Virus record (IMG/VR): IMGVR_UViG_3300049491_000383
Location: 72,080-136,079 of that record
Reading direction: 5' to 3' (one strand)
Origin: a virus
DNA length: 64,000 nucleotides
Positions 12,305 to 63,820 of this stretch are shown here, in pieces (the stretch's first letter is position 1; each line of letters starts with the position of its first letter). Below the pieces are notes generated by a model. That model saw nothing but the letters and a program-made list of their open reading frames with translations. It was not told where the DNA came from and did no database searches. The translations under genes were made by a program, and so were the position numbers.

Positions 12305-12380
12305 TGGTGCCCCCGCCATGATTCGAACACGGGACCCCCGCATTACAAGTGCGGTGCTCTACCAGCTGAGCTACAAGGGC
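12305..12380 (-). tRNA. tRNA-Thr(TGT)
   Basis: Canonical cloverleaf, loop CT-TGT-AA. Confidence 0.93.
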
Positions 12381-14095: not shown

Positions 14096-15529
14096 TTAGA
14101 AGTCGTAACGCTGGACCATGACGGTCTTCAGCATGATGCTGATCGGTGTCATTTCTTCACCACCTAGCACTGACTTAACAATGCTTGGAGAGAAGCCAGA
14201 CACAAGAGCTGCACCAGCCTTGTTATAGGTCACCGGGCTGTTACCGGCGCGGCCGTTCAAGTTCCAGAATACAACCTGCGGTACCTTGTACCCTGCAGCC
14301 TGATATTCCTTCTCGATGAACTCCATCGCCGATACGCTAACCGGGCCGCCGCCTGTCGAGTAACGACCGCTCTTACCAGTACCACCCGAAGTGATGCACT
14401 GGTCGAATTCCATGTCCGACAAGATCAAGACCTTTGTCGGCATTTCCTTCTGCGGAACCTTACCCTTGATTGCGGCAGACAAGATTAACTTGAATACTGC
14501 ACCCAGGTCGGTGTTCATTCCCCAATCCGAACGTTCCATCTGGTTGAAACGCTGTTCCAAAGTACCAGACAACTTTACCATCTGTGGCGAACCAGAGAAA
14601 GTAACGAACTGATCCTTGAACACACCACCCATACGCTCGGAAGTGTACAGGCCAAGTGATACAGCTACGTCCAGCGCAGTTACGCTACCGGATACGGCCA
14701 CACCGCTCATCGAGCCCGAAACGTCAACAACCGGTAGGATGTTTTCGTCAGAACCTTCCAAGTAGTTAGGCAATGCCTTCCACTGTGCGTTTGCAACAGC
14801 CTTGTCACCGTTACGAAGCGAACGGATCACATCGTAAGGGTACGCAACCGAAGCGTTGATCTTGGCTTCACCAGATTCCAACTTCTCCTTGTACTTTGCG
14901 TAACCGGCCGGGTCGTGCTTCAAGAATGCCTTCTGGTAACGACCAGCAGCAACTGAAGGAACGTGTGGGTACACGATTCCAGTCCAGTCCTGAGCGCACA
15001 TCTTCTGTTCAACAGTGTTGGACAGACCGACCAAAAGCTTACGGTAAGCCTTAGGAGTCAACTTCATGTACGAACGGATCTTGTTGGCTTGTTCGCCCTG
15101 ACGCGGCATCCACTTCGCGCACAGACCGTCTTGCACGTCGTTCAACGCGAAAGCAATCATGCGCAGAGCATCACGCTCCAGCACAGTACCAAAAGTCATC
15201 AAGACGTCGTCCCAACGACCAAGTTCGGGAACCTTCACCAACAGGCGTTCTGCAAGCTTCGGCTCGGAACGGATTACGTAACCGAACAGCTTACGGAAAG
15301 TTTCACGCTCACCCGCACCACCACGTGCGTCACGAGCCCATTCAAGGACACGGATCGCAACTTCGGAGTCTTCCACCAAAGCACCTGCGAAAGTGCTTGT
15401 GATGTCCTTACCACGGCTTGCACCGGCCAAGAAGAAGAGGTCCACGTTCTTGTTCAAAGACGAGGAGTTTGTAACTGCGCCGTTGGAAGTTACTGCGGAT
15501 GCGTTTACGGCTTCAAATAGTGTTGTCAT
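14096..15529 (-). CDS. DUF2828-type Ro60/TROVE-like protein with C-terminal vWA domain
   Basis: T.NGA...SS...VDLFF, RD.RGG.GER, GRWDD, AKWMPR, MIDAS DVSGSM, TDL..VF, SDMEFD, VFWNL, VSGFS. Confidence 0.85.
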   Translation of the reverse strand: MTTLFEAVNASAVTSNGAVTNSSSLNKNVDLFFLAGASRGKDITSTFAGALVEDSEVAIRVLEWARDARGGAGERETFRKLFGYVIRSEPKLAERLLVKVPELGRWDDVLMTFGTVLERDALRMIAFALNDVQDGLCAKWMPRQGEQANKIRSYMKLTPKAYRKLLVGLSNTVEQKMCAQDWTGIVYPHVPSVAAGRYQKAFLKHDPAGYAKYKEKLESGEAKINASVAYPYDVIRSLRNGDKAVANAQWKALPNYLEGSDENILPVVDVSGSMSGVAVSGSVTALDVAVSLGLYTSERMGGVFKDQFVTFSGSPQMVKLSGTLEQRFNQMERSDWGMNTDLGAVFKLILSAAIKGKVPQKEMPTKVLILSDMEFDQCITSGGTGKSGRYSTGGGPVSVSAMEFIEKEYQAAGYKVPQVVFWNLNGRAGNSPVTYNKAGAALVSGFSPSIVKSVLGGEEMTPISIMLKTVMVQRYDF

Positions 15530-15546: not shown

Positions 15547-15666
15547 AGAATCAGTTTTACTTTGCCTGCTGCTCTACCAACTGAGCTACCTCACTATTTC
15601 TAGTGAAGGCGGGACTCGAACCCACGACCGTCTGGTTATATTAAGTTTTGTTGCGGAATTGATTCT
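15547..15666 (-). ncRNA. YrlA-like circularly permuted tRNA mimic closed by the CMGCAA helix (family member A)
   Basis: AGAATCA-ATTCCGCAAC...T-arm GTGGG-TTCGAGT-CCCGC, acceptor stem closed by GAAA, D-arm GCTC-AGTTGGTA-GAGC...TGATTCT. Confidence 0.8.
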
Positions 15667-17939: not shown

Positions 17940-19025
17940 TCAATCCTCTTCCTTTAATAGGAATTTGTTGCTGATGGTTTTGAAACTAAAACCACCATCC
18001 ATTCTCTTGTAAACAAGACCTTCACGAATCGCATGCTTGATGCTAGGACCTTCTGCAAATGCAAGCAACTTATCCACATCAAACAACCCGAATTCATACA
18101 ATGGAACATCCATATGCAGAACAGGGACATGATGTACCATCTCGCGATTTACACCTCGTGCCCAAAGCTCATCCAAAATCAGATGACGTTCTCTCGGAGG
18201 TACATAACCACCTGTGGTAATATTGAAGATGTCAAACACAAACAATTTATGCGAAGCAAATGCCTCACGATTCTTCTGTATACCCGGGCCCATGAGCTCA
18301 GCTTGTACAGCAAAATCTCTGTCAAAAGAGCGCATAATATCGTGTAGCCCGCTGTCTACAAACATGCGTACCAAACTATTGTGCTCGTTTTTAGGATCAT
18401 CCAACTTCAGTTCCCAATTACGACCGCAAACACCCGGAACACCATCCTTTACAAATGCAGTAAAGGAAGTACCATCGAACTTCATGCTGATTTCGTAACG
18501 TGCATCCGCGTTATCAACAAAGATATCGCGCTTCATGTTTTGGCAACGTTCCTGATCAGTCTTTCGAATGAATGCAGGGAAGTTACCCTTCACTTGACCA
18601 GCAAGTTCTGTAGGAATGGCAGCTTCATACTTCTGGATATCCAACAAGTCAGATACGTCGGTGCCGACCATAAAGAACTCTGAAAGTTCCTGTCCTTCAT
18701 CTTCGTCGGAATCAATAAAGTCGTTGAAGAACAAATTCACAGGTAATGCAAGGCCCTGGCTGAGCTGACCACGCAACTTAATAGTCTTGATACGGAAACC
18801 CTCACGCTCTCCCATTCTCTTGGAGGAGTTTCTGCGCAAGATTTCGAATTCGGGACGGACAGGCAAATGGCTGTCGATTTCAAAGTAGACACACAAATCG
18901 CCCACATTGAATTCAGACTTCTTTACCACGCATTGCCAGCCATCAATTTTTGCCAGCTGAACTAAGTCCGCACCTTCGATAGGTAGCAGATCATCAATCC
19001 TACGTATTGTTGCAAGCTTTCTCAT
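17940..19025 (-). CDS. ATP-dependent RNA ligase, DRB0094/Rnl5 family
   Basis: N-terminal OB fold (I.GAD..., YFEIDS, KLRGQLSQGL), KTDQER, motif I KFDG, EGLVYK, SFK.IS. Confidence 0.9.
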   Translation of the reverse strand: MRKLATIRRIDDLLPIEGADLVQLAKIDGWQCVVKKSEFNVGDLCVYFEIDSHLPVRPEFEILRRNSSKRMGEREGFRIKTIKLRGQLSQGLALPVNLFFNDFIDSDEDEGQELSEFFMVGTDVSDLLDIQKYEAAIPTELAGQVKGNFPAFIRKTDQERCQNMKRDIFVDNADARYEISMKFDGTSFTAFVKDGVPGVCGRNWELKLDDPKNEHNSLVRMFVDSGLHDIMRSFDRDFAVQAELMGPGIQKNREAFASHKLFVFDIFNITTGGYVPPRERHLILDELWARGVNREMVHHVPVLHMDVPLYEFGLFDVDKLLAFAEGPSIKHAIREGLVYKRMDGGFSFKTISNKFLLKEED

Positions 19026-23721: not shown

Positions 23722-23814
23722 TGGCGGATGGGTAGGGAATCGAACCCTCGGCAGTTTTCACCACTCCACTTACTTTCCAAGTAAGGCTTGTATCCCAGAC
23801 AAGATACCGCATCC
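23722..23814 (-). tRNA. tRNA-Ser(GGA), atypical (8/4-like)
   Basis: Loop TT-GGA-AA, long variable arm, G73, bulged 8-bp acceptor with 4-bp T-stem. Confidence 0.75.
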
Positions 23815-25780: not shown

Positions 25781-25854
25781 TGGTTGCGTGGCCTCGGAAT
25801 CGAACCGGCCCTTAAGGTTATGAGCCTCACGTGCTACCATCACACTCGCCCGCA
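25781..25854 (-). tRNA. tRNA-Met/Ile2(CAT), atypical
   Basis: Loop CT-CAT-AA, bulged T-stem, ACCA end. Confidence 0.7.
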
Positions 25855-30042: not shown

Positions 30043-30236
30043 AATAAGGTATTTATGTTTCGCCGCGGTGTTTTCGAAGTACCAAAGCTAACGTTTCAAC
30101 TCACGTATCAATAGTGTTTTAAGATGCCATGATAAGGACACTCAAGATGTATAGACCTACGCCTATTACCGAGATTTAAGAGTGCTGCAATGTTACTCTG
30201 ACAGAAATTTTAACGTCCCCTGCCTGACGCGAAATC

Positions 30237-30312
30237 TGGTGGGCGATGAGAGATTCGAACTCCCGACCCGCTCCATGTAAAAGAGCTATTCTAACCGCTG
30301 AAATAATCGCCC
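30237..30312 (-). tRNA. tRNA-Val(TAC)
   Basis: Loop TT-TAC-AT. Confidence 0.9.
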
Positions 30313-30335
30313 AAATCTCTTAACTTACTTCTATT

Positions 30336-30596
30336 TTAACTTCTAAGTATCAGGACTGTCAAGTCTGGATCATCTAATGTTCCGGTCAATAAACGAACAG
30401 AACAGACAGTCTCCCTTCTTTCTTGTATTTCCCAGGTGCAATTTTTCCATAAAAATTCACCAACCGATTCATCAACAAATGTAGAACACTCTCCCCAAAC
30501 AACTCTATCCTCTACTACAGCGTCTGCTATAGCTGGTAGAATTTTTTGGTTAAATCCGTAACACTTAATGAATCTTAAATCTTGTGGCCAGGACAT
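30336..30596 (-). CDS. hypothetical protein
   Basis: 86-aa ORF. Confidence 0.4.
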   Translation of the reverse strand: MSWPQDLRFIKCYGFNQKILPAIADAVVEDRVVWGECSTFVDESVGEFLWKNCTWEIQERRETVCSVRLLTGTLDDPDLTVLILRS

Positions 30597-30898
30597 ATTA
30601 TGAATGTTGTAGTGTCGAAATCTTCAGAATGTGTGGGCTCATCGACTAAGCTAAGGGACTTGCACCCTATCCGATATACTATTTCTAGTAGTGACCATTG
30701 CTTCTGCTAGACATTTTCTACAACGAAATTTTTACTCAATAGCCGAAAGTTGATCAAGGGTGATCTTGTATCCGTTATACACAAAATAGGGGCCTGTATC
30801 ATCCACTCTGTGAGCGTCAACCTTCTCTGCTTCCGTCAATTTCTTAAATTCTTTTACGTCTTCTAACGATGCTTGTTCCATTTTTTTATCCTTATATC

Positions 30899-30951
30899 AG
30901 AATGCTTATTTTCAAATTACAAGTTTGATTTTTAGTTGCTGAACGCATTCT
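30899..30951 (-). ncRNA. CAGCAA-helix RNA with Thr(UGU) anticodon stem-loop mimic (member D)
   Basis: AGAATGC-GTTCAGCAAC...TCAAA-CTTGTAA-TTTGA...GCATTCT. Confidence 0.75.
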
Positions 30952-31255
30952 TCAAGACTTCGTAACTGCGTCGTCTGTATTTATCACATTTCTACGGTTA
31001 AATTAGAATGACTTAAACCGCTTTTTCACCAATTCTACAATGTACAAGGACTCTTAGAAATTCCAGATGTGCGCCGGATATTCGCCTGCACTCAATGGGC
31101 CAATTATTCCCACATACCAACCGCCAACTTATTACACAATTTAGATCAGCGCGATGGGCACTTCGATATAATCACCTCGGTCGATAACCGATACTAATTA
31201 GGGTGAAAGATTTATATCAAAACGTTTTGGTATCGGTCGGGCCGTACCGGTCACT

Positions 31256-31564
31256 CTAAACCTTTCTATCTATCCATTCTTCCCACTCTTTACAACCGGT
31301 GGGTGGACCATCAATTAAATCATCATCAAATGGGCCTTGATTTTCTGCTAACGCAATCGGCCCAAATGGAGGATCCTCAATGAACTCGACGTTACCATCG
31401 AAATCATCATCAAATTCAAAACCTGTTTCACCTACGTGATTCTTACCAACCCAATCCGACATTATAATAATCGGACCTGCAACTACCAGAAGGTAAACAG
31501 ACATCAATGCTGCACCAATGGGTGTAATACCACTGGATCTTAACATCCTGTAGTCATCGAACAT
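31256..31564 (-). CDS. hypothetical membrane protein with acidic tail
   Basis: 102-aa ORF with one TM segment. Confidence 0.45.
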   Translation of the reverse strand: MFDDYRMLRSSGITPIGAALMSVYLLVVAGPIIIMSDWVGKNHVGETGFEFDDDFDGNVEFIEDPPFGPIALAENQGPFDDDLIDGPPTGCKEWEEWIDRKV

Positions 31565-31830
31565 TAAAGCTTTACCTTGGTGTCGTGAACAATCAGTTCA
31601 ATCTTTTCACGGATGACAGGGACTTCAAAATTCTCAAACATTGCAACGGTCGAACGAAGTCTTTCCCACATGTCCTTATAGTCTTTAGAGTGCGATGTGA
31701 GGTAGAAAAAGTTCTTATCACCGAGCACTGGATCGCGAGCAATCTCGGATGTCTTCCAATGACAAAGTTTTGCAATGTTGGTGGCTGTTGCTGCGTCGTC
31801 TGTGGATACAGTAATGTGGCATTCAAACAT
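31564..31830 (-). CDS. hypothetical protein
   Basis: FECHITV...REKIE. Confidence 0.5.
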   Translation of the reverse strand: MFECHITVSTDDAATATNIAKLCHWKTSEIARDPVLGDKNFFYLTSHSKDYKDMWERLRSTVAMFENFEVPVIREKIELIVHDTKVKL

Positions 31831-32020
31831 TTTAGTCTTTCAGGTAGATTGTGGATTCATCTCTTGCAGTCTTAACAAGAAGTTCTCTCAGCACAGCAAG
31901 GTGACCAGAATCGCGAGTGTACTTCAATTCTTCTCTTTCAAATTTTTGACGTGTCTGGATGGCCTCGTACAACATCATTTGAAACGTGCTTCTATAGACT
32001 TCCATATGTTTCTTTCTGTG

Positions 32021-34744: not shown

Positions 34745-34814
34745 ATGTTGGAACGAGGACTCGAACCTCGACTATTATAAAATAGGGACCGTGCTACCTT
34801 TACACTATTCCAAA
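34745..34814 (-). pseudogene. degenerate tRNA-like element without CCA
   Basis: D-arm and T-arm (CGAGG-TTCGAGT-CCTCG) intact, irregular anticodon arm. Confidence 0.5.
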
Positions 34815-38924: not shown

Positions 38925-38927
38925 AAA

Positions 38928-39266
38928 TTTGATTACCCTATAGCCGGGGTTCTGTGCCTCTTTCGAGCGACAATCATTCATCTACGGTATTTAGCCGTCC
39001 TCCCCAGGTTTCAATCTGGATCATAGGTGCCACAACCCGAACCCTCGGCGAACAGCGTCAACGAGTTCTGTTTGTGTTACTGCGGGATCGTTGTGGTACA
39101 AGCGTGTTATGAACGTATAGTGCAGGGTCTCATCGACCTGGGGCCACTCTATCCATTTCCTTATGGGCGTTCTATAGCGTATAACACTTCCACAGAGCGA
39201 TGAACCCTGTTCTATGCAGGCCCGAACTTCCTCTACCTTTCAGCAGCGATTGTCCAGGTAATCAAA
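38928..39266 (-). ncRNA. rnpB: RNase P RNA
   Basis: P1 TTTGATTACC/GGTAATCAAA, GACAATCGC...GAGGAAGTTCGGGC (CR-I), AGATGAATGATTGTC (CR-IV), ACAGAACCCCGGCTATA (CR-V). Confidence 0.88.
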
Positions 39267-50433: not shown

Positions 50434-50444
50434 ACTGTATAGAC

Positions 50445-50501
50445 AGAATACGTTTTATTTTCAATTAAAAGTTGATTTTTTGAAATTGCTGAATGTATTC
50501 T
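50445..50501 (-). ncRNA. CAGCAA-helix RNA with Lys(UUU) anticodon stem-loop mimic (member E)
   Basis: AGAATAC-ATTCAGCAAT...TCAA-CTTTTAA-TTGA...GTATTCT. Confidence 0.75.
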
Positions 50502-50511
50502 TTAGAAAACT

Positions 50512-51713: not shown

Positions 51714-51801
51714 AGTTTTCCTTATATAGTCAGAGTGCGCTTTCTTTTCAAGATAATGGTTTGAAATTGTTTTAGGTTTGCGGTAAACACTCTTTAGAAA
51801 G

Positions 51802-52421: not shown

Positions 52422-52497
52422 TGGTAGGCCCTGACAGCATCGAACTGTCATCACTCCGCTTAAAAGGCGGGTCTCTAGCCATTTGAGTTAAGGACCC
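52422..52497 (-). tRNA. tRNA-Lys(TTT)
   Basis: Loop CT-TTT-AA. Confidence 0.9.
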
Positions 52498-54969: not shown

Positions 54970-54980
54970 ATAAAATAATC

Positions 54981-55036
54981 AGGATACCTTTTTGCTTTTT
55001 TACAGAAAAGTTGATTTGGGTTGCGGAATGTATCCT
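54981..55036 (-). ncRNA. CCGCAA-helix RNA with Tyr(GUA)-like loop (member F)
   Basis: AGGATAC-ATTCCGCAAC...CTTTT-CTGTAAA-AAAG...GTATCCT. Confidence 0.7.
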
Positions 55037-55099
55037 TTAGAAACAGTGACCGGCTTTATCATTATATCAGATAGTGATTATAAAGCTCTCGGCCGAAAA

Positions 55100-58482: not shown

Positions 58483-58598
58483 AGGTTCGCATTATACGTG
58501 CTACCACTACACTAAAGCGACGACCAACCTCGCTCCCAGGACTCGAACCTGGCCCTTCCATTTTCAAGATGAATAATTTTTGTTGCTGAAACGAACCT
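58483..58598 (-). ncRNA. circularly permuted tRNA(UGA) closed by the CAGCAA helix (member G)
   Basis: AGGTTCG-TTTCAGCAAC, TTCAT-CTTGAAA-ATGGA, T-arm CCAGG/CCTGG, looped acceptor GAGCGA/TCGCTT, D-arm, CGAACCT. Confidence 0.8.
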
Positions 58599-58976: not shown

Positions 58977-59054
58977 TGGCTCCAGGAACTGGAATCGAAC
59001 CAGTCTAATCTTGGTTAACAGCCAAGCGGTTGACACCATGTCGCCTCTCCCGGA
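58977..59054 (-). tRNA. tRNA-Asn(GTT)
   Basis: Loop CT-GTT-AA, G73. Confidence 0.82.
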
Positions 59055-59365: not shown

Positions 59366-59441
59366 TGGCTCCGTGAGAACGATTCGAACGCTCCTCTTCC
59401 GGTTAACAGCCGGAGGTACTCACCGAGAATACGATCACGGA
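59366..59441 (-). tRNA. tRNA-Asn(GTT)
   Basis: Loop CT-GTT-AA, G73. Confidence 0.85.
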
Positions 59442-60359: not shown

Positions 60360-61388
60360 TTACGCTGGGACGTTAACCCAGATCATCAGGCCCATTCCCT
60401 TGGTCAACTTACGGTTAACCGACGTGGATTGCACGTAGATTTCGTAGTTGGCATGGTTGCCCGGAGCAAGCTTGACATCGCCGGAGTGCGGGAGGCCGAG
60501 CAGGTCGCGTGCATTGAAGCCACTGTAGACAGCACCGGACGTCTTGTCACGGATGGCAATCTGTTTGTAGCCCTGGACGGTTTCAGTCTTCTTCAACTCG
60601 TAGAACGCACAGCCCTTTGTAAAGGTAATGCCCTGGTCGTTGACGAAATCACGAATCTGTGCGCCATCATTGGCAGCATCCACTTCGTAGACTTCAACTT
60701 GCTTGGAGATGTCAACCAACTCGGTCTTCACTTCCTTCAGGGTCACATTGCTCAGGTCCGCGTAGAACTTGTCGGTTGCATTGATACCGCGTGCCTTGGC
60801 AGCATAAAAACCCTTGAAAGCACTCTTGGTCATCACAGTCGACGCAGCAATACCACGTTCCGATTGTTCCCATTCCTGGATGTTGCCTTCCGGAATACCG
60901 TATTGGGTAAGCTGATGCTTATAGCCCGCAGGTACTCGGAACACAAATGTCCAACGATCGGTCATTTGCAGCTTCTTGATCAGCTTCGCAATTGCCGGAC
61001 CGGTGTACTTGCGACTTGCATTTTCGCCACCGTCAGTTGTGGTGAACACCACAAAGGATACGCTGGGATCATCCGCATCGGGCACTGCCTGGAGTTGTTC
61101 AACCAATTCACCCACTGCATCAAACAGCGGAGTACCACGTCCACGAGCACTGTAGCTAGACTCCAGCAACGGCTTCAGTGCCGAAACAGAGGAGTTACTA
61201 ACGACAGTACGCACTTCATCAGTGCTGCCGTATCCAAGTTCGACCACAGTCACAACGGTATCAATACCGTGGGTGGCTGCTTCTTCCTTGATGGATTCAA
61301 TGTTTTCGTTGTAATCACGTGCGGCGTGGCGTGCAATGTTAGCCATCGAGCCGGAGTGATCTCGTGCAAGTCCTTGGTATACTTTCAT
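60360..61388 (-). CDS. vWA-domain protein
   Basis: MIDAS DHSGSM, TPLFDAV, TTDGGENAS; C-terminal VQSTSVNRKL. Confidence 0.85.
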   Translation of the reverse strand: MKVYQGLARDHSGSMANIARHAARDYNENIESIKEEAATHGIDTVVTVVELGYGSTDEVRTVVSNSSVSALKPLLESSYSARGRGTPLFDAVGELVEQLQAVPDADDPSVSFVVFTTTDGGENASRKYTGPAIAKLIKKLQMTDRWTFVFRVPAGYKHQLTQYGIPEGNIQEWEQSERGIAASTVMTKSAFKGFYAAKARGINATDKFYADLSNVTLKEVKTELVDISKQVEVYEVDAANDGAQIRDFVNDQGITFTKGCAFYELKKTETVQGYKQIAIRDKTSGAVYSGFNARDLLGLPHSGDVKLAPGNHANYEIYVQSTSVNRKLTKGMGLMIWVNVPA

Positions 61389-61455
61389 GTGTGCCTTTCT
61401 GTTTGATGTAGTGAATCTACCTCTACACTATAATACAGTTGGCTCTTTGTGTCAA

Positions 61456-61572
61456 TGGTGCCGCCGCCGGGAATCGAACACCGGATCTACTCCTTGTAAT
61501 GGAATTTAGATTGCTGTATGTATCCTTGACAGGATCACCTTTTTAGTTGTGTTGCCTTTACACTACAGCGAC
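61456..61572 (-). ncRNA. CCA-ending tRNA(UAC)-like RNA with the CAGCAA helix inserted between the D and anticodon arms (member I)
   Basis: GTCGCTG/CGGCGGC-A-CCA, D-arm, insert ATCCT-GTCA-AGGAT-ACATACAGCAAT, TTCC-ATTACAA-GGAG, T-arm. Confidence 0.78.
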
Positions 61573-61909: not shown

Positions 61910-61984
61910 TGGCATCCTGTACGAGAATCGAACTCGCCTGAATAGGTTGAAAGCCTACGGACCTCACCAGAAGTCAAACAGGAT
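61910..61984 (-). tRNA. tRNA-Glu(TTC)
   Basis: Loop CT-TTC-AA, G73. Confidence 0.82.
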
Positions 61985-62268
61985 ATAAATTTTGAAGTTG
62001 TTATCCAAACACACGAGGAGAATCGAACTCCCACACACGCCTTGCTGACGCCGCACTGCCATTATGCTACATGCTCATTTCTAAAGACCTACGTCAACAG
62101 TTACAGAAGAAACGTGGATACAACTATTAAAGTCAGTTGACGCTGACTATAATTCTTTGAATGCTATTTGCAGGGGAGTCGAACACGCCACCTTAATGTA
62201 TCTAGATTGGTAAACACACTAATGTACCGACCAGAGATCCAATCACCTCTATGCACGGTTGCAAAATC

Positions 62269-63078: not shown

Positions 63079-63153
63079 TGGTGCTCCGTGGAGGATTCGA
63101 ACCCCCCTCTCTAGACTACAAAACTAGCATTCTACCGAATGAACTAACAGAGC
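63079..63153 (-). tRNA. tRNA-Thr(TGT)
   Basis: Loop TT-TGT-AG. Confidence 0.85.
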
Positions 63154-63749: not shown

Positions 63750-63820
63750 TGGTGGACCTGTGGGGAGTTGAACCCCAAGCGTCGCATTGCAAGTGCAATT
63801 CCTGACCCGTCAGCAAGCCC
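63750..63820 (-). tRNA. tRNA-Ala(TGC), compact D-arm
   Basis: G3:U70, A73, loop CT-TGC-AA; D-arm CTGAC-GG-GTCAG. Confidence 0.78.

What the first reader, a model, noticed from the sequence alone, without database searches (positions are those of the whole stretch)
30899..30951. 53-nt RNA presenting a bare tRNA-Thr(UGU) anticodon stem-loop
Inside the motif helix the only structure is TCAAA-CTTGTAA-TTTGA, a 5-bp stem with a 7-nt loop identical to the loop of this phage's tRNA-Thr at 12305 (C32 U33 UGU A37 A38). Inference: a minimal anticodon decoy or bait.
Basis: partly seen in the sequence, partly recalled or inferred. Interest (0 to 1): 0.8.

Follow-up and report, generated by a model that had tools for sequence, protein, structure and literature searches.

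The report
Phage RNA displaying bare anticodon arm
A giant freshwater phage carries a 53-base RNA gene whose only variable part copies the codon-reading hairpin of threonine tRNA, mounted on a conserved "handle" shared with RNAs that travel with a Ro60-like ring protein; it is probably a protein-held bait for enzymes that recognise tRNA anticodons, a design I could not find in print.

Summary
On the minus strand, 30951-30899 is a 7-bp closing helix, then GUU-CAGCAA, an A-rich linker, a 5-bp stem with loop CUUGUAA, a second linker and the 3' arm. The loop and its closing A-U pair equal those of the phage's tRNA-Thr(UGU) at 12305.

Alone it is weak: the fold is no better than shuffles. Comparison rescues it. 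A covariance model built only from relatives' copies hits it at 55.8 bits, E 1e-10. Of 40 distinct small copies, 21 carry a stem of at least 4 bp with a 7-nt Y-U-NNN-A-N loop. On the 38 then known this was 19, against 2.0 +/- 1.2 in shuffles. Eight anticodons occur, mostly Lys UUU, Thr UGU, Tyr GUA and Asn GUU.

The handle also precedes a DUF2828/DUF7788 gene whose model folds like Ro60. It resembles Dictyostelium Class I RNAs but scores below Rfam's threshold.

Conservation is partial: the syntenic copy in one relative has a non-canonical loop. Expression, protein binding and the decoy role are untested.

This scan noted the same design before on other DNA (e1-5641495, e1-5707208). My literature searches found no description.

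The parts
30899..30951 (-). The element: closing helix, CAGCAA handle and anticodon-arm look-alike (53 nt)
   Evidence: Sequence. Model R1, built from relatives only, scores 30895-30955 at 55.8 bits, E 1e-10.
30945..30951 (-). 5' arm of the 7-bp closing helix
   Evidence: Pairs with 30899-30905. Outer pair probabilities are 0.72-1.0. In 21 relatives' copies 5 of 7 pairs covary, but pairing was demanded when those copies were collected.
30936..30944 (-). Handle motif: GUU followed by CAGCAA, directly 3' of the 5' arm
   Evidence: C, G, C, A, A of the motif are invariant in alignment A1. It aligns to the ACAGCAA core of the Rfam RF01414 consensus.
30912..30928 (-). Anticodon-stem-loop look-alike: 5-bp A/U stem and 7-nt loop C32 U33 U34 G35 U36 A37 A38 (Thr UGU)
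   Evidence: The loop and the A31-U39 pair are identical to tRNA-Thr at 12305. The same 17 nt occur in L078:1501-1572.
30899..30905 (-). 3' arm of the closing helix; followed by GAU
   Evidence: C, U and the following G are invariant in A1.
30732..30881 (-). 49-aa ORF whose ATG lies 17 nt after the 3' arm, with AAGGA between them; whether it is a real gene is uncertain
   Evidence: No Pfam hit above cut-off, no PHROG, no tblastn match in relatives.
50445..50501 (-). Sister small member with loop CTTTTAA (Lys UUU); tRNA-Gln starts 11 nt downstream
   Evidence: R1 65.9 bits; RF01414 34.8 bits.
54981..55036 (-). Sister small member; Tyr-type loop CTGTAAA in one register, or a 6-nt loop in another; tRNA-Met starts 11 nt downstream
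   Evidence: R1 54.5 bits.
51732..51793 (-). Sister small member with a 9-nt loop that is not anticodon-like; lies 18 nt before the ATG of a 125-aa gene
   Evidence: R1 46.5 bits.
15547..15666 (-). Large member: handle around a T arm, a capped acceptor stem and a D arm (YrlA-like); ends 17 nt before the DUF2828 gene's ATG
   Evidence: RF02553 YrlA 35.8 bits, under its gathering score of 69..
58483..58598 (-). Large member: handle, then a Ser-UGA-type anticodon arm, T arm, capped acceptor stem and D arm (a permuted whole-tRNA look-alike)
   Evidence: arms read by eye from the sequence.
14096..15529 (-). Presumed protein partner: 477-aa DUF2828 + DUF7788 protein with a Ro60-like predicted fold
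   Evidence: Pfam E 1e-26 and 3.8e-51. AF2 mean pLDDT 78.3. All 12 listed PDB rows with E <= 0.001 are Ro60/TROVE proteins.
17940..19025 (-). RNA ligase gene near the Ro60-like gene
   Evidence: Pfam PHA02142 OB-fold 1.5e-39 and RNA_ligase 3.6e-16.
12305..12380 (-). Phage tRNA-Thr(UGU) whose anticodon loop the element copies

Best explanation
The element is a minimal member of a family of small 'handle' RNAs in the tRNA island of a group of ~360-385-kb freshwater phages. The handle is a 7-bp helix joining the two ends, followed by N-U-W-CMGCAA and an A-rich linker, with CUG after the 3' arm. I infer it is the binding site of the phage's Ro60-like DUF2828/DUF7788 ring protein, as the closing helix of a Y RNA binds Ro60. 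The variable module held by the handle is here nothing but a look-alike of the anticodon arm of tRNA-Thr(UGU). I infer that the RNA is transcribed with the island, bound by the ring protein through its handle, and presents the anticodon arm as bait for a protein that recognises anticodon loops. The most likely such protein is a host anticodon nuclease of the kind that attacks tRNA-Lys, Thr, Asn and Tyr, which the RNA would occupy or divert. Shown: family membership, the anticodon-type loop and its enrichment, and the Ro60-like fold. Inferred: transcription as a discrete RNA, protein binding, and the decoy action. My odds: family member 0.9; anticodon-arm mimicry under selection 0.7; Ro60-like protein as partner 0.55; decoy for anticodon nucleases 0.3.
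For: (1) Family. Model R1, built from 21 relatives' copies only, finds four small members in the window: 30895-30955 at 55.8 bits (E 1e-10), plus 50441-50505, 54977-55040 and 51728-51797. It has matches in 30 of 37 related phage records at E <= 0.001. It has none in 31 of 32 unrelated viral stretches (287 kb) that fit a loose text pattern by chance.
(2) Mimicry. 21 of 40 distinct small members have a 7-nt Y-U-NNN-A-N loop on a stem of 4-6 bp, 5 bp in 12 of them. On 38 members the count was 19, against 1.96 +/- 1.23 in 1000 shuffles. Position 34 is never A although A makes up 50% of the inserts. The 31-39 pair is A-U in 18 of 21. The loops equal those of this phage's own cognate tRNAs.
(3) Modularity. 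The same inner hairpin sits in other outer helices (L078, L053). The same outer helix holds Lys instead of Thr (L058, L094). Large members carry whole or partial tRNA look-alikes in the same slot.
(4) Partner. The DUF2828 protein's model matches Ro60 structures over its full length; the best is Thermus phage phiLo Ro60, 9KOP, E 7.4e-11. Handles without any insert lie 11-16 nt before this gene's ATG in 5 relatives, and the window's 15547 member lies 17 nt before it. An RNA ligase gene lies 2.4 kb away. Ro60 with tRNA-like Y RNAs is an established pairing (PMC4201824, passages; PMC12135203, passages).
(5) Discrete RNA. 14 of 40 small members have a tRNA gene 5-11 nt downstream and 8 of 40 have one 6-10 nt upstream, so they sit in tRNA slots.
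(6) Decoy. 17 of the 21 mimic Lys UUU (6), Thr UGU (5), Tyr GUA (4) or Asn GUU (2). PARIS AriB cleaves tRNA-Lys(UUU), Thr(UGU) and Asn(GUU), which share U36-A-A-U39 (PMC12409363: abstract; section 22). 12 of 21 mimics, this one included, keep that motif, while phage tRNA copies Lys 52422 and Asn 58977 and 59366 have G or C at 39. Retron-Eco7 degrades tRNA-Tyr (PMC12673091, abstract start in the listing).
Against: There are no expression data: no RNA run is on record.
The inner hairpin is all A-U and marginal, with pair probability 0.2 at 37 C and 0.57 at 15 C. The whole element folds no better than shuffles.
The syntenic copy in G001 has lost the canonical loop. Two Tyr-type copies lack U33. 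19 of 40 small members display other conserved loops (ATTGG-type, a 9-nt ACCATTATC-type) that no anticodon reading explains.
The 21 mimics come from about a dozen related phages and many are orthologs, so the counts are not independent events.
The enrichment of A/U-rich anticodons fits the A/U-rich inserts as well as it fits nuclease targets.
AriB also needs D-loop contacts that a bare arm lacks (PMC12409363, section 23).
The element lies 15.4 kb from the DUF2828 gene. The handle-protein link rests on records chosen for having that gene, with no negative control. Binding was not tested. The host is unknown.
Confidence: 0.45

Rival explanations
1. Same particle, different job. The handle-bound Ro60-like ring uses the anticodon arm as an adaptor, not as a decoy. 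It would bring tRNA-handling enzymes (the nearby RNA ligase, modification enzymes, an exonuclease such as PNPase) to the ring for repair or quality control of damaged tRNAs, as Y RNA tethers Ro60 to PNPase.
For: The fold is Ro60-like. An RNA ligase gene is nearby. Jumbo-phage TROVE proteins are described as RNA-repair platforms with a tRNA-like partner (PMC7824862, passage). phiLo Ro60, its Yrl RNAs and host PNPase form a complex (PMC12135203, passages). Large members carry T, D and acceptor modules like YrlA.
Against: A bare anticodon arm has no known role in recruiting ligase or PNPase. The anticodon spectrum, focused on known nuclease targets, is not predicted by this reading. Nothing was tested.
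Confidence: 0.2
2. Cis-acting operator. The handle in a 5' leader is a binding site through which the Ro60-like protein controls translation of the next ORF. The inner hairpin is incidental.
For: The 3' arm ends 17 nt before the ATG of ORF 30732-30881, with AAGGA between them. The same 11-18-nt spacing is seen at the DUF2828 gene itself (5 of 5 insert-less handles and 4 of 19 large members) and at the 125-aa gene after 51732. In all, 6 of 40 small members have this arrangement.
Against: The 49-aa ORF has no homolog in relatives and no family. 14 of 40 small members are followed by a tRNA, not an ORF, including the copy with the identical inner hairpin (L078, tRNA-Phe 10 nt downstream). This reading does not explain the anticodon-type loops. 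It can coexist with the trans-acting reading.
Confidence: 0.12
3. Decayed remnant. The small members are deletion derivatives of larger members that carry whole tRNA look-alikes. The anticodon arm is inherited baggage with no function of its own.
For: Large members have an anticodon arm in the same position after CAGCAA (58483, 61456). The G001 syntenic copy has a degraded loop. The hairpin is weak.
Against: The loop frame C-U-NNN-A-A is kept in 16 of 38 members, against 0.33 expected, while the anticodon, the stem and the outer helix all change. Stems show full arm swaps (TCAAA/TTTGA versus TTTGA/TCAAA). Identical 17-nt hairpins persist in phages whose DUF2828 proteins are 84% identical (L078). 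Neutral decay in such A/U-rich DNA should erase a 7-nt frame.
Confidence: 0.12
4. Chance hairpin in an intergenic spacer, with no RNA gene.
For: The outer arms and the fold energy alone are within chance.
Against: R1 gives E 1e-10 with a model that never saw this window. This stretch is among the few parts of the region that match relatives at the DNA level. The sequence is identical in contigs of a second freshwater study.
Confidence: 0.02

Closest known systems
Ro60 (Rsr/TROVE + vWA) with Y RNAs, especially bacterial and phage YrlA (Rfam RF02553; Chen et al. 2014, PMC4201824; Thermus phage phiLo Ro60 with Yrl1/Yrl2, PMC12135203)
   Same: A small RNA whose two ends form a protein-binding helix with a short conserved motif beside it, carrying a tRNA look-alike. 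Its genes lie on the same strand as a ring protein with a Ro60 fold, and an RNA ligase gene is in the neighbourhood. The window's 15547 member gives a partial YrlA match (35.8 bits).
   Different: The motif is CMGCAA, not GNCGAA/CGAA. The protein matches Pfam DUF2828/DUF7788, and no TROVE family was reported at E <= 0.01. YrlA mimics the T, D and acceptor arms and puts the Ro60 helix where the anticodon arm would be. This element has only the anticodon arm. It has no RF02553 match and lies 15.4 kb from the gene, outside the 4 kb used by Chen et al.
Class I RNAs of dictyostelid amoebae (Rfam RF01414; Kjellin et al. 2021, PMC7919456)
   Same: About 55-60 nt; the RNA begins AAG; a short terminal stem whose sequence varies while pairing is kept; the ACAGCAA-type motif directly after the 5' arm; an A-rich stretch; CUG at the 3' end; a variable remainder (passages). 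RF01414 aligns end to end to this element, to 50444-50500, to five copies in relatives and to the G001 copy.
   Different: All scores (25.6-34.8 bits) are under the gathering score of 41.5. Class I RNAs are eukaryotic, have a DUSE promoter, bind the RRM protein Rnp1A, and were reported as found only in Dictyostelia. No anticodon-type display is described for them. I could not test whether amoebae have a DUF2828 protein.
Phage-encoded tRNAs that defeat tRNA-cleaving defences (T5 tRNA-Lys/Thr/Asn against PARIS AriB, PMC12409363; phage tRNA-Tyr against retron Eco7, PMC11555353)
   Same: The same set of tRNA identities (Lys UUU, Thr UGU, Asn GUU, Tyr GUA). The genes sit in a phage tRNA island.
   Different: Those are whole, functional tRNAs that replace cleaved host tRNAs and have lost the nuclease's recognition letters. 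This is a bare arm that cannot be charged, and it keeps U36-A-A-U39.
Anticodon-arm mimicry in mRNA leaders (the thrS operator bound by threonyl-tRNA synthetase; recalled, no call)
   Same: A hairpin with a tRNA-Thr-type anticodon loop just upstream of a ribosome-binding site.
   Different: The downstream ORF is a 49-aa unknown, not a synthetase. The hairpin is part of a repeated handle family that mostly precedes tRNAs.

Membership tests
Handle-RNA family of this phage group (model R1) | Significant score to a covariance model built without the candidate | tested here: met
   55.8 bits, E 1e-10, full model 1-67.
Handle-RNA family of this phage group (model R1) | 7-bp helix joining the 5' and 3' ends, beginning A-G and ending C-U | tested here: met
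   In relatives 5 of 7 pairs covary, but pairing was required when they were collected.
Handle-RNA family of this phage group (model R1) | CMGCAA three nt after the 5' arm; G after the 3' arm | tested here: met
Handle-RNA family of this phage group (model R1) | CTAA before the 5' arm (typical of close relatives) | tested here: not met
   The window has TTGA. Compared with the G001 copy, 9 nt are missing just upstream.
Handle-RNA family of this phage group (model R1) | Same strand and same tRNA island as a DUF2828/DUF7788 gene | tested here: met
   The gene is at 14096-15529 (-), 15.4 kb away.
tRNA anticodon stem-loop (as a look-alike) | 5-bp stem, 7-nt loop, Y32, U33, purine 37 | tested here: met
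   Stem TCAAA/TTTGA with loop C-U-UGU-A-A.
tRNA anticodon stem-loop (as a look-alike) | Loop equal to that of a real cognate tRNA | tested here: met
   Identical to tRNA-Thr(tgt) at 12305, including A31-U39; the rest of the stem differs.
tRNA anticodon stem-loop (as a look-alike) | Loop frame kept in homologs while the anticodon varies | tested here: inconclusive
   21 of 40 keep it with 8 anticodons, far above shuffles. The G001 syntenic copy and two Tyr-type copies break it.
tRNA anticodon stem-loop (as a look-alike) | U-turn fold and modification such as t6A37 | not testable with these tools
   Needs RNA from infected cells.
tRNA gene | Cloverleaf found by ARAGORN or Rfam RF00005 | tested here: not met
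   No call at 30899-30951.
Y RNA / YrlA (RF02553) | Rfam gathering score; GNCGAA motif; T, D and acceptor-like domain | tested here: not met
   No RF02553 match in 30700-31300 at E <= 10. The motif is absent and there is no T or D arm.
Y RNA / YrlA (RF02553) | Bound by a Ro60 protein | not testable with these tools
   Needs a binding assay.
Dictyostelium Class I RNA (RF01414) | Rfam gathering score of 41.5 bits | tested here: not met
   25.6 bits, E 0.0037 on 131 nt, end-to-end alignment.
Dictyostelium Class I RNA (RF01414) | Short terminal stem, motif beside the 5' arm, AAG start, CUG(U) end, ~60 nt | tested here: met
   One search compared with passages of PMC7919456.
Dictyostelium Class I RNA (RF01414) | DUSE promoter; dictyostelid genome | tested here: not met
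   This is a phage contig.
Ro60/TROVE protein (presumed partner, 14096-15529) | Ring of helical repeats plus a vWA domain | tested here: met
   All 12 listed PDB rows with E <= 0.001 are Ro60 proteins, TM 0.44-0.57. Model pLDDT 78.3, pTM 0.73.
Ro60/TROVE protein (presumed partner, 14096-15529) | Pfam TROVE domain match | tested here: not met
   Only DUF2828 and DUF7788 were reported at E <= 0.01.

The most novel reading that the evidence does not exclude
A Ro60-like ring protein of giant phages is armed with interchangeable RNA baits. The smallest baits are bare anticodon arms of exactly the tRNAs that bacterial defence nucleases cut (Lys, Thr, Asn, Tyr), and they keep the nucleases' recognition letters. 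The particle would be a programmable sponge, or a sensor, for anticodon nucleases. Its handle would be the same device as the unexplained Class I RNAs of Dictyostelium, making this one ancient ribonucleoprotein class spread from phages to amoebae.
Probability: 0.2. Interest if true: 0.9.

Novelty: new variant of a known kind. Interest (0 to 1): 0.72.

Why it matters
Phages are known to answer tRNA-cutting defences by bringing replacement tRNAs or repair enzymes. A protein-mounted RNA copy of only the targeted hairpin would be a third strategy, a decoy. It would give Ro60-type proteins, whose substrates in bacteria and phages are still poorly defined, a concrete role in the fight over tRNAs. 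The anticodon shown by each bait would then report which tRNA the host's defences attack, readable from sequence alone. The likeness of the handle to Dictyostelium Class I RNAs also gives a testable lead, a DUF2828-type partner, for an abundant RNA class whose function has been open since 2004. The experiments are simple: a gel shift of a 53-nt transcript, and cleavage competition with purified nucleases.

Tried and rejected
Phage GenBank collection: blastn of 30300-32000 found no match.

My first handle pattern had one N too many and found only a chance site. I then used a script scanner. Its chance rate is 0-7 hits (mean about 2.7) per 136 kb over both strands in 20 block shuffles, against 12 minus-strand and 4 plus-strand hits in the real record.

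Two scanner hits were dropped before all counts as chance matches lacking the flanking signature: L007:11850-11902 and L049:9352-9404.

One small member known (L025:11457-11527, not anticodon-like) was not among the matches. With it the tally would be 21 of 41.

One search covered 50 of the 96 sources then held. The others overlap these or are the same records.

One search covered 32 of the 35 stretches. The other three lie in G001 and G004, already searched. 31 of the 32 had no R1 match, so that text pattern mostly caught chance sites. Only L107 gave two new copies.

The record behind L107 is a 26%-complete fragment and shows no DUF2828 gene. This is uninformative.

RNA evidence: no RNA holder listed. 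The three DNA runs laid are contigs. They show the stretch unchanged in a second study and nothing about transcripts.

Protein atlas: only DUF2828 clusters of viruses and bacteria were listed, with nothing on amoebae.

Promoter and terminator scan of 30200-31700: counts as in shuffles, no terminator.

Literature searches that found no description of this RNA-protein pairing or of bare anticodon-arm RNAs in phages:
- 'DUF2828' (5 papers; judging from titles and abstract starts, all that I saw, none deals with the family's function);
- Y RNA / Ro60 / bacteriophage / tRNA-like;
- anticodon stem-loop / decoy / phage / anticodon nuclease;
- TROVE / phage / tRNA mimic / noncoding RNA / Ro60;
- Class I RNA searches;
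- tRNATyr / retron.
Supplements are closed. The supplementary tables of Chen et al. 2014, which list 22 phages with YrlA, could bear on prior listing, and I did not see them.

Considered and set aside:
- A permuted-tRNA precursor spliced at the handle: the small members lack acceptor, T and D arms.
- An RNase III site: 7 bp is too short.
- A reading on the plus strand: there the loop would be U-U-ACA-A-G, and the loose loop rule cannot tell strands (18 of 38 pass as reverse complements). The strict rule gives 0 of 38, and the handle and all genes are on the minus strand.
- Complex prediction was not used, because it does not take RNA.
Full report
CONTEXT. The window is the last 64 kb of a 136-kb viral contig estimated to be 35% complete. 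ARAGORN lists 56 RNA genes, tRNAs plus one permuted tmRNA, all on the minus strand. Complete relatives are 360-385 kb with terminal repeats. The DNA occurs in freshwater and sediment metagenomes. Contigs of a second study cover 30652-31090 without a difference. The GenBank phage collection has no DNA match.

THE OBSERVATION. Read on the minus strand, 30951-30899 is laid out as follows:
- a 7-nt arm;
- GUU and then CAGCAA;
- seven mostly-A letters;
- the stem TCAAA/TTTGA around the loop CTTGTAA;
- six A/U letters;
- the complementary 7-nt arm, followed by GAU.
No ORF of 30 aa or more overlaps it. Seventeen nt further on, an ATG preceded by AAGGA opens a 49-aa ORF.

The loop is the same seven letters as in the phage's tRNA-Thr(UGU) at 12305, and so is the A31-U39 pair that closes it. 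The rest of the stem differs: it is G/C-rich in the tRNA and all A/U here.

By itself the element is unimpressive:
- The arm pair is expected 0.16 times, and 14 of 100 shuffles have one.
- The MFE is -6.1 kcal/mol with z -0.55, and the wider 129 nt give z +0.61.
- The inner hairpin is worth -0.7 kcal/mol.
- Its pair probability is about 0.2 at 37 C, rising to 0.57 at 15 C, where it is part of the MFE. The outer helix is essentially always formed.

IT BELONGS TO A FAMILY. I checked them.

Ten minus-strand loci in the window share this plan: AAAG, arm, N-T-W, CMGCAA, an A-rich stretch, an insert, the complementary arm, then CTG. A permissive scanner gives 12 minus-strand and 4 plus-strand hits in the 136-kb record, against 0-7 over both strands in shuffles.

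The DUF2828 protein led to 37 related loci. I also fetched the tRNA islands of four complete relatives.

From 21 small copies in relatives I built alignment A1 and model R1, with none from this window. Two chance-like scanner hits had been dropped. In A1 the 7 helix pairs are all formed and 5 of them covary. That pairing was a condition of collection, so it is not independent evidence.

R1 then finds four small members in the window with filters off:
- 50441-50505, 65.9 bits;
- 30895-30955, 55.8 bits, E 1e-10;
- 54977-55040, 54.5 bits;
- 51728-51797, 46.5 bits.
The next match has E 0.057.

R1 has matches in 30 of 37 related records at E <= 0.001. It has matches in 1 of 32 unrelated viral stretches that fit a loose text pattern. 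The element is therefore a true family member.

IS THE INNER HAIRPIN AN ANTICODON-ARM LOOK-ALIKE? I collected all R1 matches with E <= 0.01 in 50 of the 96 sources then held, plus two from L107. They make 64 distinct sequences: 5 handles of about 40 nt with no insert, 40 small members (47-80 nt) and 19 large ones.

Of the 40 small members, 21 contain a stem of at least 4 bp around a 7-nt loop with Y32, U33 and A37:
- Stems are 5 bp in 12, 4 bp in 8 and 6 bp in 1.
- There are 13 distinct stems, 9 distinct loops and 17 distinct outer helices.
- Position 32 is C in 19 and position 38 is A in 18.
- The anticodon letters are UUU (6), UGU (5), GUA (4), GUU (2), and GAA, GAU, UAU and UCC once each.

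On the 38 members known the count was 19, against 1.96 +/- 1.23 (maximum 6) in 1000 dinucleotide shuffles of the inserts. The strict C-U-NNN-A-A form gave 16, against 0.33 +/- 0.56 (maximum 4). Reversed inserts gave 0. Reverse complements pass the loose rule (18) but never the strict one (0), so the strand rests on the handle.

On the first 25 members the figures were 15, against 1.23 +/- 1.06.

Further tRNA-like traits:
- Position 34 is never A, although A is half of all insert letters.
- The closing pair is A31-U39 in 18 of 21.
- The loops for Lys, Tyr, Asn, Gly(UCC), Phe and Thr equal the loops of this phage's own tRNAs.

THE MODULES SWAP.
- The identical 17-nt hairpin sits in G010 (L078:1501-1572) inside a helix whose first pair is G-C instead of A-U.
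- It also sits, one pair shorter by my scanner's register, in G004 (L053:7960-8020) inside an unrelated helix.
- The very helix of this element holds a Lys UUU loop in G002 (L058:4108-4170) and G018 (L094:2737-2799).
- Two copies have the stem arms exchanged.
- In large members the slot after CAGCAA holds partial or whole tRNA look-alikes. 58483 has a Ser-type anticodon arm, T arm, capped acceptor stem and D arm. 15547 has a T arm, capped acceptor stem and D arm, with a partial YrlA match of 35.8 bits.

RESULTS AGAINST. The syntenic copy in G001 is L047:17769-17832. It shares the upstream flank, the outer helix and a downstream homolog of the window's 86-aa ORF. Its loop is 9 nt, or 7 nt with C33 and an A.A closing pair. 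Two Tyr-type copies have C33 or A33 (L080, L093).

Nineteen of the 40 small members carry other inserts, some of them conserved. An ACCATTATC-type 9-nt loop occurs in window 51728, L058:15448 and L093:13130, with a variant in L095. ATTGG-type loops occur in L029, L038, L053:7596 and L058:13759, with a variant in L024. I cannot explain these.

The 21 positives come from about a dozen related phages, so they are not 21 independent events.

THE LIKELY PARTNER. The 477-aa protein at 14096-15529 matches Pfam DUF2828 and DUF7788. Its AF2 model was made from 18 aligned sequences and has pLDDT 78.3 and pTM 0.73. Its 12 listed PDB matches with E <= 0.001 are all Ro60 proteins aligned over the full length, led by Thermus phage phiLo Ro60 (9KOP, E 7.4e-11).

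Handles lie directly before this gene. Five insert-less ones lie 11-16 nt before the ATG in relatives. The window's 15547 member lies 17 nt before it, and so do three large members in relatives. This suggests that the protein binds the handle and may regulate itself.

That link is an inference. The records were chosen for having the gene, I have no negative control, and binding was not tested. An RNA ligase gene lies at 17940-19025.

Published background:
- Ro60 with tRNA-like YrlA RNAs in bacteria and 22 phages (PMC4201824, passages).
- TROVE proteins of jumbo phages as RNA-repair platforms (PMC7824862, passage).
- phiLo Ro60 with two Yrl RNAs and host PNPase (PMC12135203, passages).

DISCRETE RNA OR LEADER? 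14 of 40 small members have a tRNA gene 5-11 nt downstream and 8 of 40 have one 6-10 nt upstream. They occupy tRNA slots and would be freed by tRNA processing (inference). This element does not: the nearest tRNAs are 586 and 1069 nt away. It stands 17 nt before an ORF that has no homolog in relatives and no family. Six of 40 small members have such an arrangement with a ribosome-binding site and a start codon. A cis role for the handle is therefore a live rival here. It could coexist with a trans role.

THE DECOY READING. 17 of the 21 look-alikes are Lys UUU, Thr UGU, Tyr GUA or Asn GUU.

PARIS AriB cleaves tRNA-Lys(UUU), Thr(UGU) and Asn(GUU), which share U36-A-A-U39 next to the cut. A change at position 39 abolishes cleavage (PMC12409363: abstract; section 22). 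Retron-Eco7 degrades tRNA-Tyr, and Septu cuts tRNA-Tyr (abstract starts in the listing). PrrC cuts tRNA-Lys (abstract start).

Twelve of the 21 look-alikes, this one included, keep U36-A-A-U39. Among the phage's real tRNAs, Lys 52422 has G39, Asn 58977 and 59366 have C39, and Thr 63079 has G38. This is the pattern expected if the real tRNAs escape and the baits attract.

It is circumstantial. A/U-rich anticodons also fit the composition of the inserts. AriB additionally reads the D loop (section 23). The host is unknown.

CLOSEST KNOWN RNA. Rfam has no match at gathering thresholds. With permissive settings the only family that aligns end to end is RF01414, the Class I RNA of Dictyostelium:
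- 25.6 bits here;
- 34.8 bits at 50444-50500;
- 30.4-34.4 bits for five copies in relatives;
- 32.5 bits for the G001 copy.
All are under the gathering score of 41.5.

The published description matches the handle point by point: about 60 nt, AAG start, a 6-bp covarying terminal stem, a conserved motif right after the 5' arm, CUGU end and a variable rest. It reports these RNAs as found only in Dictyostelia, with function unknown (PMC7919456, passages). I found this match before reading earlier scan notes that say the same.

VERDICT. The element is a bona fide minimal member of a handle-RNA family, and the anticodon-arm likeness is a family trait well beyond chance, though not universal. The partner and the decoy function are inferred.

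It is a new variant of the Ro60/Y-RNA kind. I found no description in print with the searches; supplements were closed. The scan has met the same design before on other DNA (e1-5641495 and e1-5707208 for lone anticodon arms; many notes on the handle with DUF2828).

Noticed in passing
L047:17640-17760 (-), with matching stretches upstream of L051:15168 and L055:11051: A ~110-nt GC-richer stretch is conserved between G001, G003 and G004, between the handle RNA (or a tRNA) and the homolog of the window's 86-aa ORF. It looks like a structured RNA. No Rfam match at E <= 1 in L047:17560-17900 other than the handle. It is absent at the matching place in the window.
   Followed up: partly
window 51728-51797 (-); L058:15448-15517; L093:13130-13199; L095:816-886: Small handle RNAs whose insert is a 6-7-bp stem with a conserved 9-nt loop (ACCATTATC type). 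The loop is kept across phages while the outer helix changes. It is not anticodon-like and I cannot explain it.
   Followed up: no
L029:11631-11693; L038:9787-9851; L053:7596-7657; L058:13759-13823; L024:9823-9884: Another recurrent insert: a 5-bp stem with an ATTGG-type pentaloop (ATTGA in L024). Meaning unknown.
   Followed up: no
L017:9950-9989; L018:1760-1799; L019:9638-9678; L012:2855-2894; L060:11251-11291: Handles with no insert at all (helix, CAGCAA, about 9 nt) lie 11-16 nt before the start codon of the DUF2828 gene. This suggests the protein regulates its own translation.
   Followed up: partly
window 52422-52497, 58977-59054, 59366-59441, 63079-63153 (-): Duplicate phage tRNAs for Lys, Asn and Thr differ from their sister copies at positions 38-39 (G39, C39, C39, G38). 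These are the letters PARIS AriB reads in E. coli tRNAs, so they may be escape variants.
   Followed up: partly
window 61380-61545 (-): A handle 5' half is followed by a Val-type anticodon arm (loop ATTACAA), a T arm and an acceptor 3' strand ending in ACCA. I could not find a matching 3' handle arm. ARAGORN does not call it. It may be a split or half tRNA look-alike.
   Followed up: no
window 7102, 15586, 23710, 54550, 55098, 57810, 57906, 60004, 61902 (minus strand): T-arm-like repeats that ARAGORN does not call as tRNAs. Permissive Rfam adds tRNA-like matches at 34746-34814, 25785-25853 and 63753-63808, and tRNA-Sec-like matches at 61913-61985 and 23726-23814. The island holds more tRNA-derived RNAs than the 56 genes listed.
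   Followed up: no
window 38925-39265 (-): Bacterial RNase P RNA class A match at 68.5 bits, under the gathering score of 100, next to tRNA-Asp. A phage-encoded RNase P RNA candidate.
   Followed up: no
window 31097-31255 (-): The first 159 nt of the 374-nt spacer upstream of the element are 70% identical to a stretch in G004 (L051:15947-16104) and hold inverted repeats. No ORF of note. Possibly another RNA or a decayed gene.
   Followed up: no
window 30952-30975 (-) compared with L047:17833-17865: The flank just upstream of the element is shared with G001, but the window lacks 9 nt there, so the usual CTAA before the handle reads TTGA.
   Followed up: yes
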